Shown piece after piece: positions 52,301 to 55,248 of a stretch of DNA of 64,000 bases. This stretch comes from a virus. How positions within the stretch are numbered: the stretch's first letter is position 1; the number at the start of each line of letters is the position of its first letter. The notes under the pieces were generated by a model. It was not told where the DNA came from. It was given only the letters and a program-made list of their open reading frames with translations, and made no database searches. Made by a program: the position numbers and the translations under genes. The stretch covers positions 64,001-128,000 of IMG/VR virus record IMGVR_UViG_3300042516_004811; one strand, given 5' to 3'.

Positions 52301-55248
52301 TAGAAGTTCAATGGGTCCTTGAACTGCTCAAACTGCGGCATTGTGATTTCGTCAGCCATTGGGCTATAGAAAGCCCTATTGCCCTTGACTTCCTTCCATG
52401 CTGGAGCAATTTCTTTGATTACATCTTCCAGGTCCTGGAGTCTCTGCTCTGGTGACAACTGAAGAACATCATCTAATTCATACATTTCTGGTGGGAGACC
52501 CTCAACGTCTGCGACGTTCCAGACTGTGGTTGTGTGGAAGCCGCGATAGCTGCCAACTACATTTCCATCCCTATCGAGTATGGCTGTCTCTGTTTTGTTC
52601 GGAGCAAGAATCTGGACGCCACGCTTTTCCATGGCCTCCTTGCTTATTTTGCCGCCAATCTTTTTCCACTGACCAGCTCCGGCCCAGCGATTCGTCTTGT
52701 AGCCCCTAGCGCTGCTGATTAGTGTCAGCATCAGCTGGTTTGTTCCCTGATAAACACGCTTCTGGCCAGTTGCGTTTCTCGCCATGATTTCCAGTTGGCG
52801 CCACGGGATTTCCCATCTCGCATTGCCTGGATTCTTGGCAATTTCTTCAAGAGCAGTAATAATCTGCTCTGTCATCTTGGCATAAACATCATCCAGAATT
52901 TGCTTTTGCTCTTCTGGGGTTACATTGTCGGAGTCAAGAACCTTTCCAGAGGAAAGTCTTTCACCTTCTTTGAACTTGTTGAGTGGGCCCTGATACTTAA
53001 CCTTGTCAAAATCGCTACGCTTATTGTCTGGGGTGCTGAGGAAGCGCTGGTAACCGCTTGAGAGTTTGGTTACGTCTCCAGCATCCTGCTGACGCATTTC
53101 GCGCTCTGACATCTTCTCGACACGATTCATGTATTTGTCGAGTTCGTTGATTGCCTTACGCAGTCTCTTTATTTGGTCTGGGTCACTTGCCCCATCAAGA
53201 ACACCCTGTAGCTGTTCTCTCTGCTCTTCAGCCATGGCCATTTTGTCAAACGACGCAACATCTGGGTCATCCACACGTGGAACCTCATAGAGCTTTCCAC
53301 TCGAAAGTCCTGTTGCTGGCTTTGATACTGGCGCGCCAGGTGCGCCTGGCTTCTTGAGCTGCTCGGGGGATGGCTTTGGGTTGCGTATTGAGCCAGGACC
53401 GTCTGGGGTTGGGTCGGCCTGCGCAAGGGGTGTGCCTCGCATGAATAGGCCCTCACCAACAATTCCATCAAGGTCAACGTCTCTTGCGGTGAATGGGTCA
53501 AAGTCCTGAGCACCAGAGCTGGTGAAGAATCTTCCACGAGAGCGACCGCCACCAAGATTTGGTCGGTCAACCATTCGGCTACCAATTGCCCTGCCTAGGC
53601 GGTAGCCAATAGCCTTTTCTTCTATGCCACCATCATTTAAGGATTTTTTTTTTAAATTATCAAGCGCGGTATCAATTGCGTCGATGAGCTCAAAGCTGGC
53701 CCCCGAAGTGATAACAATTCCATCCGTATCCACATAAGCGTCGGCATAGTGGTAATCAAAAATTGGGTCGAGAGCCTGCTTTACACGGAACGCATACTGC
53801 GGCATTACCGGAATGCAGTATGCGCCATTCATGTCATCGCCCTCGCGACCGAAGTCAGCGAGGCTCTTGTATTTACGATTCTTCTTGCGCTTACGCCCAA
53901 TAATTCCTCTTAGAGCAGCTACGGCTAGTTCGCCTGGATACTTAACCTCAAGGTCCTCAAGGTAATCCTCTTCATTTGCTTCTGTCTGGTATTCGTAAGA
54001 CTTCTTGATGACAACATCACCCTTGACTACACCCTTAGGAATGACTGCAAATCTGCACTTACCTTCAGATTCAATGTCGAGGTCGATTATCTGGCAAGAG
54101 TTCCCACCCTTGAAAAATACGCAGTTGGCGCACTTGACGCCGATGTTCTTGACATCATTTTCTGCGGCCGATGTGTACCCAGCCCAAACGCCATCAGCGT
54201 CTTCATTAAACTTGCCATAGCGCTTAACTATCTTAAGAAGAGAATCGCGGAGGTCAGCCTCTTCTGAGTCGATATTGTTCGGGTCGAACTGCGGACGAGG
54301 CTTTTTACCTGAGTCCTCGTAATCAACTGGCGGAAGCGGAACTATTTGCATCCCAGCCTCGCCTGGCTTGATTGCAACAGGGATTCCCGGCATCTGCGAA
54401 GGACGCATAATTCTTTCTGGGACTGACGGCATTCCAGGTGAAGCCATTGGCATCATTGGCATTGGCTTTGGAGCCATAGGAACACGCTGTGGTGGGCCAA
54501 ACATAAATCCGGCAGGTCCACGGCTGTAGTGGCACTTGTACTTGCCCACTTTTCCTTCGTCTTCCCTACGCGAGAAGGTAATCATGTCATCAGCAACGTC
54601 ATCAATCATGACCTTTGAACCGATAACCATCGATAGCTGCTTTTGGATTTCGTCTGTCTCGTCCTCTTCCATCATCATCATCGGTGATGGGGTCATCATT
54701 CCGCCCTTTTCATCTGACTTAACTGAGATTGTTCCAGTTAGCTGGTTTGCACCATGCAGAACGGGGGAGACTTCGTATAGTTCAAGCTCAAAGATGACAT
54801 TTGCCTGAGATTTCTGGTCATACTGAGCGCGTAGCGTCTTGTAACCAATTGACCACTCTTGCTCCTCGCCAAAAAAGGCAACATTTGCAAAGGCTTCCCG
54901 GCCCTTCTCGGACTGAAGATTGAACTGGACGCGAGCAAAAAGTCCACCAATTCCAGCCATTTTCATCTTCATTGGCAAGCGATTATCGGTGGGAGGAACT
55001 TCGTAAATCTCTAGAACTTTACCAATCGGGTCATTCCAGTTATGGCCCCATACAACACGTGGTTTTCTACGCATCAAGCTCTTTGTAAAAGCGCCAGTGG
55101 CAACGATGTCACCAACTGAGTCCTTGTTTCCGATGCCAGCAACGAAACACTCGACAATACCCTGCGCCTCATTGAGGTTAACTGAGTCGGCCTTGCCCTC
55201 GGCAGTGCCTAGCGCAGTTGTCTTGTATTCAAAAACCTCACCTGGCAT
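46345..55248 (-). CDS. 2967-aa HK97 prohead protease fused to HiPIP-like, ArdC (ssDNA-binding + MPTase zincin) and SF1/UvrD-like helicase domains
   Basis: WGHN/WSIGY/LYEVSPV protease; CANC..C..C; PW..YQGTN..W and FHETVH..EELIAE..YLASW; AGAGSGKTT, IDEAQD, VGDKRQAVYAFRG, SFRYG, SKGREW, YVALTRAK. Confidence 0.9.
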   Translation of the reverse strand: MPGEVFEYKTTALGTAEGKADSVNLNEAQGIVECFVAGIGNKDSVGDIVATGAFTKSLMRRKPRVVWGHNWNDPIGKVLEIYEVPPTDNRLPMKMKMAGIGGLFARVQFNLQSEKGREAFANVAFFGEEQEWSIGYKTLRAQYDQKSQANVIFELELYEVSPVLHGANQLTGTISVKSDEKGGMMTPSPMMMMEEDETDEIQKQLSMVIGSKVMIDDVADDMITFSRREDEGKVGKYKCHYSRGPAGFMFGPPQRVPMAPKPMPMMPMASPGMPSVPERIMRPSQMPGIPVAIKPGEAGMQIVPLPPVDYEDSGKKPRPQFDPNNIDSEEADLRDSLLKIVKRYGKFNEDADGVWAGYTSAAENDVKNIGVKCANCVFFKGGNSCQIIDLDIESEGKCRFAVIPKGVVKGDVVIKKSYEYQTEANEEDYLEDLEVKYPGELAVAALRGIIGRKRKKNRKYKSLADFGREGDDMNGAYCIPVMPQYAFRVKQALDPIFDYHYADAYVDTDGIVITSGASFELIDAIDTALDNLKKKSLNDGGIEEKAIGYRLGRAIGSRMVDRPNLGGGRSRGRFFTSSGAQDFDPFTARDVDLDGIVGEGLFMRGTPLAQADPTPDGPGSIRNPKPSPEQLKKPGAPGAPVSKPATGLSSGKLYEVPRVDDPDVASFDKMAMAEEQREQLQGVLDGASDPDQIKRLRKAINELDKYMNRVEKMSEREMRQQDAGDVTKLSSGYQRFLSTPDNKRSDFDKVKYQGPLNKFKEGERLSSGKVLDSDNVTPEEQKQILDDVYAKMTEQIITALEEIAKNPGNARWEIPWRQLEIMARNATGQKRVYQGTNQLMLTLISSARGYKTNRWAGAGQWKKIGGKISKEAMEKRGVQILAPNKTETAILDRDGNVVGSYRGFHTTTVWNVADVEGLPPEMYELDDVLQLSPEQRLQDLEDVIKEIAPAWKEVKGNRAFYSPMADEITMPQFEQFKDPLNFYSTLFHETVHWTSHPSRMNRKLGKQFGDADYAFEELIAEIGSAFALGAMGVEAPVRKDHAPYLASWLQALRSRPEALKDAITQAQQAVDFLMNRSATMRKRAGIPDGERKGKDEATAEVPMIVGFEDSPKIPTIGGVRGTFGDEDIEDIVPPAPAEKPKRTRKGSKASGEASTEALSSGAMMSNLNTVDEDIIGGGYIRREGRDGLAKDVSGRLSSGASRGSVQHRSGDEARAVKRSPGTAHFGSLYGFSYEPTEQQKDIIDTGLALMFGEQKGIMTVSAGAGSGKTTTLKALMAAAEREFDITRFINRPEALKEKLDFISEKYSTDDDKFDLSSMSEEDRDTKLSELRDKFKSPTAYYVVFNKKNEEEAAAEFSDNTGVSTLNRLSWWSLLLGQGDEKYGKKFRDKVKISTQDRGTFARRDKDGKLQTIKFTKVDGTEGETVGYDPGWRDLGYLKLSDSNGWIKALKLTDREEFSAGKGAGMPTPIAGVNLTVRDYADILNKALKAFANSADEKIGPQHFKRADINKGRASDSIVDTEWPSIPDQWLKDANDGWNMVTDPDSIVLPDQGQTDKLWAMTDPDLRSDPGLIGHATGKDLEANVQVPKETKVGDILPDGRVVISVKTGQKGKNFQATVARRYATKDNPLSMFMIDEAQDMNPVMEQVLNKNRDNLSILLVGDKRQAVYAFRGAKDILSSLNGDYDLPLNESFRYGPTVAWLANLIQSQGNIDDSELGIEDRFHHVAGLAVDVINNDFDMDGLSPERAREALVKIESKYKSDRIRIAQKGIRDDFDMTSMTVDQRREKLKAADKKYKTKLASLSDDEIVSGIEINKALSKELRKVEDSYVALADMDEAARSRELASLKDVLSKEAAGEFVADMKDADAILTRDNATIIYEALQFIQNFQPRFTRNGQELPPVVMIPATKHREMKAFFEHLSFVMDTPVDKQIELTKKGLRPKASSWIGDVWDAGEIKRRAQQEQYAQLKSMYKLVTRGNKNLGIPPRRAWEYRNMFANGVTPGIKAPVIVPERKMLNLSKLKDVNVDDLKTISAQRGTGFTSTSTASRARRFEVIPDTTGKGKSKVQWHLQLADVNGKREGEWTGAIELFDWGIDSGGEYTDTKTGKVVKAPQGVYFRDMMRILEDSDYYGGKVQFKKNGLRNKEGSGKEFGDTVVIKGDTDEETAFILNDIVSRMRTSAKTPNADVEITTAQLSKGREWDRVRVASDFRNPPDLDIDPETGKPVESRSRREELNIVYVALTRAKRAIDPGKAIYDLYLSDTVSARQREAIDKAIEDGRMPDYLNKPEGLFDPYSGEINAPTPTIEDDDDEPGDYEVGGGDDGKSIDDIIKEKEEEKEDEDASIDGIEDIGDEDASNSPDMDQFVDFLSSGRSGRGRRNRRLNRSRQTPWSDEDRQRFADRDRLRANRRPGKRNDGPSPEEFFSSGRTDVELEGRFGRRLRQGGAQRAPRNARPSTQGIAGLRLSGNPETNSKARRELDYSMRVWDGFKRTGIALDVNSDDSGTDARQRQIREAMNNVSQRMADRPQITVGSVSSNNPNQNPTASTWMLSTEKLKDTIRIPTEYSVQTDPGTGRKDITWTQSRPLSNDELASLLNLDKPNAAKLSDPDAGINHDAVRMLVAELGKQPEFAGWRLFAPVTRADEDFAEMNVMERFAENLGRANMRDRFIIETFGKDAFPHWFDEEENNPISPEEYDSLGEVSRVSQFRASGRFDKDSATRGDSPVEEMLMEESIDEAELPDIQEPDVSAEELRADKTARKDFELDALLKYLGIPEKGWQQRMRERLQQSFGMDDVGLGAQSDWKKNGVPIAYINQMIKAGLIPDASSVWRDGDSGSKLDSELSNAKHAVYEALNEFIDKSFPNSPQNSTKTRNYITNSTDMALYLSESAKRKGSVFSPRKGDEPRFSSNELQQIVNRFNEAFGTNHTIEDIFSREQLETARRRIEEDGETLSGKKRERRKVKPDNFAND

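What the first reader, a model, noticed from the sequence alone, without database searches (positions are those of the whole stretch)
53625..53660. TTT-A10 slippery run exactly at the protease/cargo junction
Seen (minus strand): GAT AAT TTA AAA AAA AAA TCC TTA AAT GA. It contains in-frame X XXY YYZ heptamers (T TTA AAA and A AAA AAA) and a 10-A run (53644-53653), the longest homopolymer I noticed in coding sequence here. Both shifted frames stop within a few codons (-1: AAA ATC CTT AAA TGA; +1: AAT CCT TAA). The site lies just before the EEKAIG leader. Inference: ribosomal frameshifting, transcriptional slippage or phase variation yields a ~535-aa protease-only product and a full-length cargo-bearing product at a set ratio.
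Basis: partly seen in the sequence, partly recalled or inferred. Interest (0 to 1): 0.75.

Follow-up and report, generated by a model that had tools for sequence, protein, structure and literature searches.

The report
Conserved slippery A-run doses phage cargo
A run of ten A's inside a giant phage head gene is kept letter for letter in diverged relatives, so it is very probably a programmed slip site that yields a short protease-only protein as well as the full protease-plus-cargo protein.

Summary
The minus strand carries A10 at 53644-53653 (codons TTA AAA AAA AAA, L532-K535) inside a 2967-aa ORF that joins an HK97-type prohead protease to ArdC, zincin and helicase cargo. It is the only homopolymer of 10 or more in the 151-kb phage genome.

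One such run could be chance; its conservation is not.
- In 43 non-redundant relatives the Lys codons are AAA in 43/43 and 42/43, although AAG is the commoner Lys codon.
- The preceding codon always ends in A, although its residue varies (L, I, V, T).
- Only 1.3% of codon columns have an invariant third base.
- Both shifted frames stop 0-6 codons after the run in all 58 sequence contexts.
- No conserved RNA structure flanks the run.

Two independent lineages carry A9+G. There the protease frame stops and the cargo continues in the -1 frame for at least 1327 codons, without a start codon and under purifying selection.

Best reading: dnaX-type programmed slippage gives a 536/538-aa short form plus the long form. 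Slippage by RNA polymerase is the most likely route, and a ribosomal -1 shift is not excluded. No RNA or protein was measured.

This scan had already noted the same junction run in related genomes (e1-5645155, e1-5742927).

The parts
53644..53653 (-). A10 homopolymer, the slip site: last base of TTA (L532) plus AAA AAA AAA (K533-K535).
   Evidence: Conserved as A10, or A11 where the next codon starts with A, in 54 of 59 unique sequences that carry a run at this site (A9 in the other five); A9 is the minimum seen.
53633..53635 (-). TGA in the -1 frame. It ends the product of an mRNA with one extra A, or of a -1 ribosomal shift, at 538 aa (tail ..LKKKILK).
   Evidence: A -1-frame stop within 1-5 codons of the Lys codons is present in all run-bearing lineages.
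53637..53639 (-). TAA in the +1 frame. It ends the product of an mRNA with one A fewer at 536 aa (tail ..LKKNP).
   Evidence: It is formed by a Leu codon YTA followed by a purine, and is kept through many different downstream sequences.
53605..53622 (-). EEKAIG (E543-G548). This is a candidate HK97-type maturation cleavage site, K545|A546, ten codons after the run.
   Evidence: the motif K-[AS]-[ILV]-G occurs once in the major capsid protein, at the end of its ~100-aa N-terminal segment (REIK|SIGQ), and once in this ORF. It is conserved in relatives as ..EKALG. Cleavage is inferred, not shown.
53644..55248 (-). N-terminal module (aa 1-535), common to the short and long products.
   Evidence: The AlphaFold model covers aa 21-531.
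54727..55167 (-). Peptidase_S78 (HK97-type prohead serine protease) domain, aa 28-174.
   Evidence: Pfam PF04586 at 40.6 bits against a cut-off of 21. PHROG head maturation protease. His69 and Ser133 are invariant in 61 relatives.
53659..53820 (-). Small alpha/beta domain (aa 477-530) predicted with confidence. Its last helix ends 1-2 residues before the run.
   Evidence: pLDDT is about 87-94 over model residues 457-510.
46345..53613 (-). Cargo part (aa 546-2967 and the stop codon): ArdC-N, MPTase zincin, UvrD-like SF1 helicase and unknown C-terminal domains. It is made only when the frame is kept across the run.
   Evidence: Pfam hits. Translation.
46345..55248 (-). The whole 2967-aa ORF, lying directly after the portal gene (55352..57439, -).

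Best explanation
The A10 run is a programmed slippage site of the Thermus thermophilus dnaX type. When the late operon is transcribed, RNA polymerase realigns the nascent U... (A in mRNA) tract on the homopolymeric template. This probably involves the host enzyme, since no phage-type polymerase was found. Some transcripts then carry one A too many or one too few. Ribosomes reading those transcripts meet a stop 1-3 codons after the Lys codons. They release a 536- or 538-aa protein that holds the protease and the following domains up to the end of a folded domain. Transcripts with the templated number of A's give the 2967-aa protease-cargo polyprotein. The two products share the N-terminal module that brings a prohead protease into the procapsid. 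The slip frequency therefore sets how many protease modules carry the 270-kDa cargo, much as Gag and Gag-Pol are dosed. What is shown: the run; its nucleotide-level conservation; the closed shifted frames; the natural out-of-frame lineages whose cargo is still selected. What is inferred: that RNA polymerase rather than the ribosome slips; the ratio of products; co-assembly in the head; cleavage at EEK|AIG. I put the two-product recoding, by either machine, at about 0.85. I put transcription as the main route at about 0.55.
For: (1) Nucleotide-level selection. Among 43 representatives below 97% nt identity, K534 is AAA in 43/43 and K535 in 42/43. Only 1.3% of codon columns have an invariant third base. 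The Lys codons are the only place with two or more consecutive invariant third positions. Other conserved Lys columns are mixed, and AAG outnumbers AAA 855 to 613. The codon before the Lys codons is TTA, CTA, ATA, GTA or ACA, so the residue varies but the last base is always A. In a DNA alignment of 16 representatives the only invariant block is T+A10.
(2) Length threshold. Runs at this site are A10, A11 or A9, never shorter. This fits the 9-nt threshold for slippage-prone runs (PMC1088944) and the 9-10 bp RNA-DNA hybrid (PMC5009743). A ribosomal heptamer would need only 7 A's. Bacterial RNA polymerase needs long A runs to slip (PMC6260861).
(3) Closed shifted frames. Both the +1A and the -1A variants stop 0-6 codons after the Lys codons in all 58 unique contexts, through more than ten different downstream sequences. 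The background probability that both shifted frames stop within 5 codons is 0.075. T. thermophilus dnaX has the same layout (PMC5009743, PMC1088944).
(4) No conserved RNA pairing from -70 to +120, and no conserved upstream element.
(5) Natural split forms. In L051/L136/L184, L125 and L186, and independently in L178, the run is A9+G, the protease frame stops after 4-8 codons, and the cargo continues in the -1 frame. L136 and L186 differ by 12% in the cargo part, with 283 synonymous against 124 non-synonymous codon differences. That frame stays open for at least 1327 codons, while the other two frames hold 59 and 112 stops. The cargo frame has no ATG, GTG or TTG from 11 codons before the run to 59 codons after it.
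(6) Short ORFs of 534-548 aa that end right after the run exist on long contigs in the protein database.
(7) Other lineages have their own A10 at two other positions within about 100 codons of this junction, again with both shifted frames closed.
(8) The run sits just after a confidently folded domain.
Against: No transcript, read-level or protein data were available, so neither slippage nor the short product has been seen. An in-phase A_AAA_AAA heptamer is present, and in both split lineages checked at the DNA level the zero frame reads A_AAA_AAG, the best -1 frameshift heptamer of E. coli. A ribosomal contribution is therefore real competition. Several related clades have the same fused gene without any run, so a short form is not indispensable to this kind of gene. 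The host and its polymerase are unknown. The search for a phage-type RNA polymerase found nothing, but its control was silent. The dosing and Gag-Pol-like function is argued by analogy.
Confidence: 0.55

Rival explanations
1. The same two products arise mainly at the ribosome. This could be a -1 programmed frameshift on A_AAA_AAA (A_AAA_AAG in the split lineages), or sliding of the ribosome on the poly(A) tract followed by termination at the nearby out-of-frame stops.
For: The heptamer is in phase in every lineage. Both DNA-verified split lineages read TTA/ATA AAA AAA AAG in the zero frame. This is the dnaX heptamer, and the -1 frame is the cargo frame. Both descend from the minority of contexts in which G follows the run. 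Ribosomes slide on lysine-encoding A runs and then stop at out-of-frame stops, in E. coli systems (PMC4363877).
Against: Seven A's would suffice for a frameshift, yet ten are conserved, including the third base of a variable preceding codon. RNAalifold finds no conserved downstream structure, and the alignment shows no conserved upstream Shine-Dalgarno-like element. A -1 mechanism does not explain why the +1 frame is also closed everywhere. In the E. coli PURE system sliding was robust at A11 but gave little product at A9 or A10 (PMC4363877), while A10 is the commonest state here.
Confidence: 0.3
2. The run is a DNA-level contingency tract. Replication slippage changes its length, so that some genomes in a population encode only the short protease and others the fusion (phase variation).
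For: A10 tracts are hypermutable in replication (PMC1088944). Two lineages have a run one A shorter that breaks the frame. One contig ends exactly at the start of the run (L021), as expected if reads disagree there.
Against: Of 59 unique run-bearing sequences at this site, 55 keep the fusion in frame, and duplicate contigs from different samples agree in length. The split state is inherited through 12% divergence rather than flickering. All progeny of one infected cell share one protein pool, so variation between genomes cannot set the composition of each capsid. A broken cargo ORF would decay, but it is under purifying selection.
Confidence: 0.04
3. There is no recoding. The A tract is kept for another reason, such as a Lys-rich linker or cleavage determinant, a translational pause that lets the N-terminal module fold, a bent-DNA or promoter element, or chance plus shared ancestry.
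For: One run of 10 or more per 151 kb is not improbable (about 0.3 expected). KKK lies in a linker next to a probable cleavage site. A weak promoter-like match ends just before the run.
Against: A protein-level need would allow AAG and would not fix the last base of the preceding codon. The promoter-like -10 is not conserved and the match is not above shuffles. No terminator-like site was found. None of these reasons explains the stops in both shifted frames, the equivalent runs at other positions in other lineages, or the selected out-of-frame cargo ORFs.
Confidence: 0.08

Closest known systems
Thermus thermophilus dnaX (tau/gamma) transcriptional slippage at an A9 run (Larsen et al. 2000, as summarised in PMC1088944 and PMC5009743)
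   Same: A long A run lies inside one long ORF. The standard reading gives the long product. Transcripts with non-templated numbers of A's meet nearby stops in both non-zero frames and give a shorter protein that shares the N-terminus.
   Different: The gene here is a phage head gene, not a replicase subunit. The run is A10-A11. The truncation removes 82% of the protein. Related genomes also exist in the opposite, out-of-frame configuration. Nothing has been measured here.
Escherichia coli dnaX -1 ribosomal frameshift at A_AAA_AAG
   Same: The same outcome: a truncated product with an immediate stop in the -1 frame. The split lineages carry exactly this heptamer in phase.
   Different: E. coli dnaX depends on an upstream Shine-Dalgarno-like element and a downstream stem-loop. 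No conserved structure or upstream element was found here. In the split lineages the shift would give the longer product, not the shorter.
Shigella mxiE and spa13, and IS-element transposases (slippage needed to fuse two ORFs; PMC1088944, PMC5009743)
   Same: The A9+G split lineages (L136, L186, L125, L178) need one extra A, or a -1 shift, to join two overlapping frames into the long product.
   Different: Those are regulators, secretion components or transposases. Here the in-frame and the split layouts both occur within one gene family.
Retroviral and Ty Gag / Gag-Pol dosing by frameshifting
   Same: A shared N-terminal assembly module is made with and without a large enzymatic extension. 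A viral protease then cuts the extension up inside the particle.
   Different: In most lineages here the default reading gives the long form and slippage the short one. The mechanism is probably transcriptional. The cargo consists of enzymes thought to be ejected into the host, not replication enzymes. This is an analogy only.
Polyvalent proteins of phages and conjugative elements (Iyer et al. 2017, PMC5512222)
   Same: The cargo has the hallmark ArdC-N + MPTase + helicase architecture and lies among head genes.
   Different: That paper holds neither 'slippage' nor 'frameshift' and mentions 'prohead protease' once, so it describes no dosing by recoding.
Conserved -1 frameshift in tail assembly chaperone genes (lambda G/GT type)
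   Same: Recoding in a phage structural gene that gives two proteins with a common N-terminus.
   Different: The chaperone case is a ribosomal shift on a short heptamer that gives a longer minor product. It involves a different gene and a different assembly step.

Membership tests
Programmed transcriptional slippage site (T. thermophilus dnaX type) | Homopolymeric A or T run of about 9 or more inside a coding sequence | tested here: met
   A10 at 53644-53653. Relatives have A9-A11.
Programmed transcriptional slippage site (T. thermophilus dnaX type) | Run conserved at the nucleotide level beyond what the protein and codon usage require | tested here: met
   AAA in 43/43 and 42/43 representatives. 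The preceding codon always ends in A. Elsewhere third positions are saturated.
Programmed transcriptional slippage site (T. thermophilus dnaX type) | Stop codons close by in both non-zero frames | tested here: met
   0-6 codons after the Lys codons in all 58 contexts. The background probability that both frames stop within 5 codons is 0.075.
Programmed transcriptional slippage site (T. thermophilus dnaX type) | mRNA population with non-templated numbers of A | not testable with these tools
   No transcript or read data were available.
Programmed transcriptional slippage site (T. thermophilus dnaX type) | Two protein products with a common N-terminus | not testable with these tools
   Indirect support only: the out-of-frame cargo ORF is kept under purifying selection in the split lineages.
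-1 programmed ribosomal frameshift cassette (E. coli dnaX type) | In-phase X_XXY_YYZ heptamer | tested here: met
   A_AAA_AAA in all lineages, and A_AAA_AAG in the split lineages and the L074 group.
-1 programmed ribosomal frameshift cassette (E. coli dnaX type) | Conserved downstream stem-loop or pseudoknot a few bases after the heptamer | tested here: not met
   RNAalifold on 16 representatives, -70 to +120, predicts 0 pairs.
-1 programmed ribosomal frameshift cassette (E. coli dnaX type) | Conserved upstream Shine-Dalgarno-like stimulator | tested here: not met
   The columns upstream of the run vary; the only invariant block is T+A10.
Phase-variable contingency tract | Run length differs among closely related genomes, switching the gene on and off | tested here: not met
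   55 of 59 unique sequences are in frame, and duplicates from different samples agree. The split state is stable over 12% divergence. Variation within samples at read level could not be examined.
HK97-type prohead serine protease (Pfam Peptidase_S78) | Profile match above the curated cut-off, with conserved His and Ser | tested here: met
   PF04586 at 40.6 bits against a cut-off of 21. His69 and Ser133 are invariant in 61 sequences. Their assignment as catalytic residues rests on my knowledge of HK97 gp4.
Polyvalent protein (Iyer et al. 2017) | Several conflict-related domains in one polypeptide (ArdC-N, MPTase, helicase) encoded next to virion genes | tested here: met
   Pfam ArdcN, MPTase-PolyVal, UvrD-helicase and UvrD_C. 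The portal, terminase and capsid genes are adjacent.

The most novel reading that the evidence does not exclude
Tailed phages of this widespread freshwater group use polymerase slippage at one homopolymer as a Gag/Gag-Pol-like dosing device. It fixes how many prohead-protease modules drag a 270-kDa chain of anti-restriction, helicase and other enzymes into each capsid. The slip is frequent enough that lineages can flip between an in-frame layout and an out-of-frame layout of the same gene without losing either product. Related lineages have re-invented the run at neighbouring positions, and possibly as T runs, and may use further runs at later domain junctions.
Probability: 0.45. Interest if true: 0.78.

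Novelty: new member of a known kind. Interest (0 to 1): 0.68.

Why it matters
Recoding in tailed phages is known mainly from tail chaperone genes and a few capsid genes. The large recoding review I searched has no hit for 'prohead', 'capsid protease' or 'scaffold'. Four further literature searches found no description of slippage at a prohead-protease junction.

If the reading holds, it shows how a phage limits the copy number of a very large head-packaged cargo protein while still making enough protease.

It also matters for annotation. The ~540-aa 'HK97 family prohead protease' ORFs that are followed by a long ORF without a start codon are not pseudogenes or assembly errors. Equally, the in-frame giants encode two proteins.

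The natural in-frame and split pairs, such as L112 versus L178, offer a ready-made experimental contrast for measuring slippage. The element is a single short tract, so it can be tested with a reporter and a synonymous AAG recoding.

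Tried and rejected
- blastn of the region against cultured phage genomes found no match.
- tblastn of the first 540 aa matched only the protease domain (aa 1-180) of actinobacteriophages (Gordonia, Brevibacterium, Streptomyces, Arthrobacter). No cultured relative therefore shows the junction.
- RNAalifold around the run found no conserved pairs. The GGCTACC..GGTAGCC hairpin I saw by eye about 36 nt downstream in the window is not conserved.
The DNA behind the short ORFs P0002, P0003, P0008, P0010 and P0013 could not be fetched. 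Scans of IMG/VR and the JGI metagenomes with P0002, P0008 and P0003 did not return their own contigs. Only P0004 (= L178) and P0005 (= L051/L136) could be checked at the DNA level.
- Pfam and PHROGs on aa 181-545 and on the 247 aa around and after the run (aa 537-783) gave nothing useful.
- Foldseek with the model of aa 21-531 gave only weak protease-fold rows (herpesvirus assemblins, T4 gp21) and nothing for the other domains.
- A search for a T7-like RNA polymerase (PF00940) in the genome found nothing, but the control was silent, so it is uninformative.
- T_TTA_AAA is rejected as the functional heptamer, because it is not conserved.
- An internal promoter is rejected. The single weak match is not above shuffles and its -10 is not conserved.
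- An intrinsic terminator using the T10 on the plus strand is rejected, since none was found.
- Independent initiation of the cargo in the split lineages is rejected, since there is no start-type codon for 70 codons around the run.

Full report
**What is there**

The window is bases 64001-128000 of a complete 151,107-bp IMG/VR virus genome with direct terminal repeats. On the minus strand a single ORF, 46345..55248, encodes 2967 aa. It lies directly after the portal gene (55352..57439). The large terminase subunit and the major capsid protein are nearby.

Pfam places these domains in the ORF:
- an HK97-type prohead protease (Peptidase_S78) at aa 28-174;
- ArdC-N at aa 787-873;
- the polyvalent-protein zincin (MPTase-PolyVal) at aa 953-1062;
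- a UvrD-like helicase spread over aa 1251-2246.

Codons 532-535 read TTA AAA AAA AAA, giving ten A's at 53644-53653. The -1 frame then reads AAA ATC CTT AAA TGA, and the +1 frame reads AAT CCT TAA. The EEKAIG motif starts seven codons after the last Lys codon.

**Is the run more than chance?**

The run is the longest homopolymer in the window. It is the only one of 10 or more in the genome. From base composition I expect about 0.3 such runs per genome, so the run alone proves nothing. Within the ORF, AAG outnumbers AAA two to one, and the only KKK is all AAA. That is suggestive. The decisive evidence comes from relatives.

**Conservation in relatives**

Four scans of IMG/VR and one of the JGI metagenomes returned more than 300 loci, which hold 112 unique sequence contexts at the junction. 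Nearly every relative that keeps this segment reads NNA AAA AAA AAA at the homologous place.

- Among 43 representatives below 97% nucleotide identity, K534 is AAA in 43/43 and K535 in 42/43.
- In those representatives only 1.3% of about 590 codon columns have an invariant third base, and the mean majority fraction at third positions is 0.53.
- The Lys codons are the only place with two or more consecutive invariant third positions.
- Other conserved Lys columns are freely mixed, and AAG is the commoner codon overall, 855 to 613.
- The codon before the Lys codons is TTA, CTA, ATA, GTA or ACA. The residue changes among L, I, V and T, but the last base is always A.
- In a DNA alignment of 16 representatives the only invariant block is T followed by ten A's.
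- The run is A10, or A11 where the next codon happens to begin with A. It is A9 in three lineages and never shorter.

This is selection on the nucleotide string, not on the peptide.

**The shifted frames**

I added or removed one A in silico in each of the 58 unique run-bearing contexts.
- In the 55 contexts where the long ORF is in frame, both variants reach a stop 0-6 codons after the Lys codons.
- In the three split contexts, removing an A also stops early, while adding one A opens the cargo frame instead.

The stops are made in many ways. Examples are TCC TTA AAT GA, AGT TTA ATC AGT GA, TTC CTA GAT GA, TTA GAA ACT GA, ATA GCT TCT GA and GAT AAT TTA G. Typically a Leu codon YTA followed by a purine closes one frame, and a codon ending in T followed by GA, AA or AG closes the other.

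At random positions in the same ORFs both shifted frames stop within five codons only 7.5% of the time. The short out-of-frame tails are not conserved, so the tail peptide has no role. What is kept is prompt termination.

**No accessory signals**

RNAalifold on the region from 70 nt before to 120 nt after the run finds no conserved base pair. The columns upstream of the run vary. The local scan finds no terminator-like site. It finds one weak promoter-like match that is not above shuffles and whose -10 is not conserved.

**Natural split genes**

Two independent lineages have a run one A shorter, A9 followed by G. One comprises L051/L136/L184, L125 and L186. The other is L178, whose sisters on the tree include the in-frame L112. 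In both lineages the protease frame ends 4-8 codons later, and the cargo continues in the -1 frame to the end of the locus.

This is not an assembly error.
- The layout recurs in contigs from several samples.
- L186 differs from L136 even in the first codon of the site (ATA against TTA).
- The two differ by 12% in the cargo part, with 283 synonymous against 124 non-synonymous codon differences.
- The -1 frame stays open for at least 1327 codons, while the other two frames hold 59 and 112 stops.
- The cargo frame has no ATG, GTG or TTG from 11 codons before the run to 59 codons after it. The conserved ..KNLGRRL.. segment lies inside that stretch.

The cargo of these phages must therefore be reached by recoding at the run. 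That needs one extra A in the mRNA or a -1 shift of the ribosome.

The protein database also holds six clusters of 534-548-aa 'prohead protease' ORFs that end immediately after the K run, among them P0002, P0003, P0008 and P0010. P0002 and P0008 lie on contigs of 81 and 180 kb. A 608-aa ORF, P0013, ends after a K run placed like that of L042.

**Distribution on the tree**

A tree of the N-terminal ~510 aa of 107 unique sequences shows the following.
- One large clade of about 45 unique sequences has the run in every member, including both split lineages.
- A second clade carries the run at the same site (L024/L026, and L027 to L047). A nested group (L046, L050, L063, L204) has lost the whole ~17-aa segment.
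- L042/L176 have a separate A10 about 25 codons further on (GAC AGA AAA AAA AAA CTT). L162/L199 have another just before an LSSG motif. Both again have both shifted frames closed.
- One clade has T7 or T8 (xxT TTT TTT) a few codons before the same ..EKALG motif. This is suggestive only.
- More distant clades have no run.

Slip-prone homopolymers have therefore been kept, moved or re-invented around this one junction. Some relatives manage without one.

**Where the run sits in the protein**

An AlphaFold model of aa 21-531, built on 61 sequences, has a mean pLDDT of 66.6. It shows:
- the protease domain;
- a confident small domain at about aa 195-255;
- a long low-confidence Met/Pro-rich and Cys-containing stretch;
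- two helices;
- a confident alpha/beta domain at aa 477-530, whose last helix ends one or two residues before the run.

Ten codons after the run comes IEEK|AIGY. The motif K-[AS]-[ILV]-G occurs exactly once in the major capsid protein, at the end of its ~100-aa N-terminal segment (REIK|SIGQ). It also occurs in three other head-cluster proteins. From memory, HK97 capsid protein is cut at K|SLG. This is therefore a plausible maturation site, but I did not test it.

If that site is used, the slip product (536 or 538 aa) and the N-terminal fragment cut from the full-length protein (545 aa) are almost the same protein. The run would mark the exact boundary between the protease module and the cargo.

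**Mechanism**

The layout matches T. thermophilus dnaX: a long A run in one ORF, nearby stops in both non-zero frames, and about half of the product short (PMC1088944, PMC5009743).

Four points favour RNA polymerase as the slipping machine.
- Ten A's are conserved where a ribosomal heptamer needs seven.
- The minimum seen, nine, equals the length at which selection against slippery runs appears in bacterial genomes (PMC1088944). It also matches the 9-10 bp RNA-DNA hybrid (PMC5009743).
- Both shifted frames are closed, as expected if A's are both added and lost.
- There is no conserved stimulatory structure or upstream element.

In an E. coli reporter study the bacterial polymerase needed long A runs to slip, whereas T7 polymerase slipped on short ones (PMC6260861). 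I found no T7-like polymerase gene here, although that search had no positive control.

Ribosomal slippage stays a serious rival. The heptamer is in phase everywhere. Both DNA-verified split lineages read A_AAA_AAG, and both arose in the minority of contexts where G follows the run. Ribosome sliding on poly(A) is documented, but in the E. coli PURE system it was robust at A11 and weak at A9-A10 (PMC4363877).

DNA-level phase variation is unlikely, for three reasons:
- 55 of 59 unique run-bearing sequences at this site are in frame;
- the split state is stably inherited;
- variation between genomes cannot set the protein make-up of capsids that are filled from one shared cytoplasm.

**Function (inferred)**

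Both products carry the protease module, which in HK97-type phages is built into the procapsid. The slip frequency would therefore decide what fraction of those modules bring the 270-kDa cargo with them. This is a Gag/Gag-Pol-like arrangement.

Closely related phages tolerate both the in-frame and the split layout. That argues for frequent slippage, since a rare event would invert the product ratio drastically when the layout flips.

**Comparison with what is known, and novelty**

The mechanism class is known (dnaX, mxiE/spa13, IS elements). The gene family and its role in head assembly are not described in the literature I could search.
- The recoding review has no hit for 'prohead', 'capsid protease' or 'scaffold'.
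- The polyvalent-protein paper holds neither 'slippage' nor 'frameshift'.
- Three further searches gave nothing relevant.

I class it as a new member of a known kind.

This scan had already noted the same junction run in related genomes: e1-5645155 (A11), e1-5742927 (A10), e1-5742934 and e1-5765865. Those follow-up notes read it the same way. I consulted them only after my own analysis, and they are not independent evidence.

**Limits**

Everything here is comparative. No RNA, read-level or protein data exist for this phage. The host is unknown; the best cultured matches to the protease domain are actinobacteriophages. The product ratio, the cleavage site and the packaging of the cargo are inferred.

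Noticed in passing
L042:4683-4692, L176:5680-5689; L162:4821-4830, L199:5869-5878: Lineages that lack the run at the usual site have their own A10 at two other positions within about 100 codons of the junction. These read ..GDRKKKLGSG.. and ..GLKKKPKVSLSSG... Both shifted frames are closed within 2-6 codons. P0013 (608 aa) ends right after a K run placed like that of L042.
   Followed up: partly
L035:4350-4358, L039:6799-6807, L042:5935-5943: A second conserved run, A9 (CGT AAA AAA AAA GGR, ..LSSGRKKKGK..), lies about 1.25-2.2 kb further into the cargo, directly after an LSSG junction motif. Both shifted frames are closed within a few codons. This may be a second slip site at a later domain boundary.
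   Followed up: partly
L196:5614-5621, L202:5583-5590, L195:5617-5623, L209:5638-5644, L168:3110-3116: One clade has a T7 or T8 run (xxT TTT TTT, ..FF[QS]..EKALG) at the same junction instead of an A run. It is in phase for a -1 shift, but the shifted frames are less tightly closed (5-20 codons). It could be an equivalent slip site or simply Phe-Phe.
   Followed up: partly
window 31858-31872 (MCP aa 99-103) and 53605-53622; also the ORFs 38423..44635, 44650..46272 and 32333..32971: The motif K-[AS]-[ILV]-G occurs once in the major capsid protein, at the end of its ~100-aa N-terminal segment (REIK|SIGQ). It also occurs once right after the slip site, twice near the N-terminus of the 2070-aa protein, and once each in the 540-aa and 212-aa proteins. 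It is a candidate prohead-protease cleavage motif, distinct from the LSSG motif noted by others.
   Followed up: partly
L021 (= L108, L289), end of contig IMGVR_UViG_3300042881_005762: This 6.3-kb contig ends exactly at the first base of the A run (..GCAAATTT). That would be expected if reads disagree in run length at this point in that sample.
   Followed up: no
G000:C1:15333-15341 (outside the window): This is the only other long homopolymer of the genome, an A9 (TGG AAA AAA AAA TAT). It lies inside a 370-codon ORF of unknown function on the plus strand. Its conservation was not examined.
   Followed up: no
window 61616-61800 (+): Four A7 runs lie within 170 nt at the Lys-rich start of a small ORF (61616..62035), next to the small RNA noted by another reader. 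They were not examined.
   Followed up: no
L074 and 11 duplicate loci (e.g. L075-L080): One in-frame lineage has AAA AAA AAG (A9+G), whereas its sister lineage (L082-L084) has A10. This is the only AAG seen at the site among in-frame sequences.
   Followed up: partly
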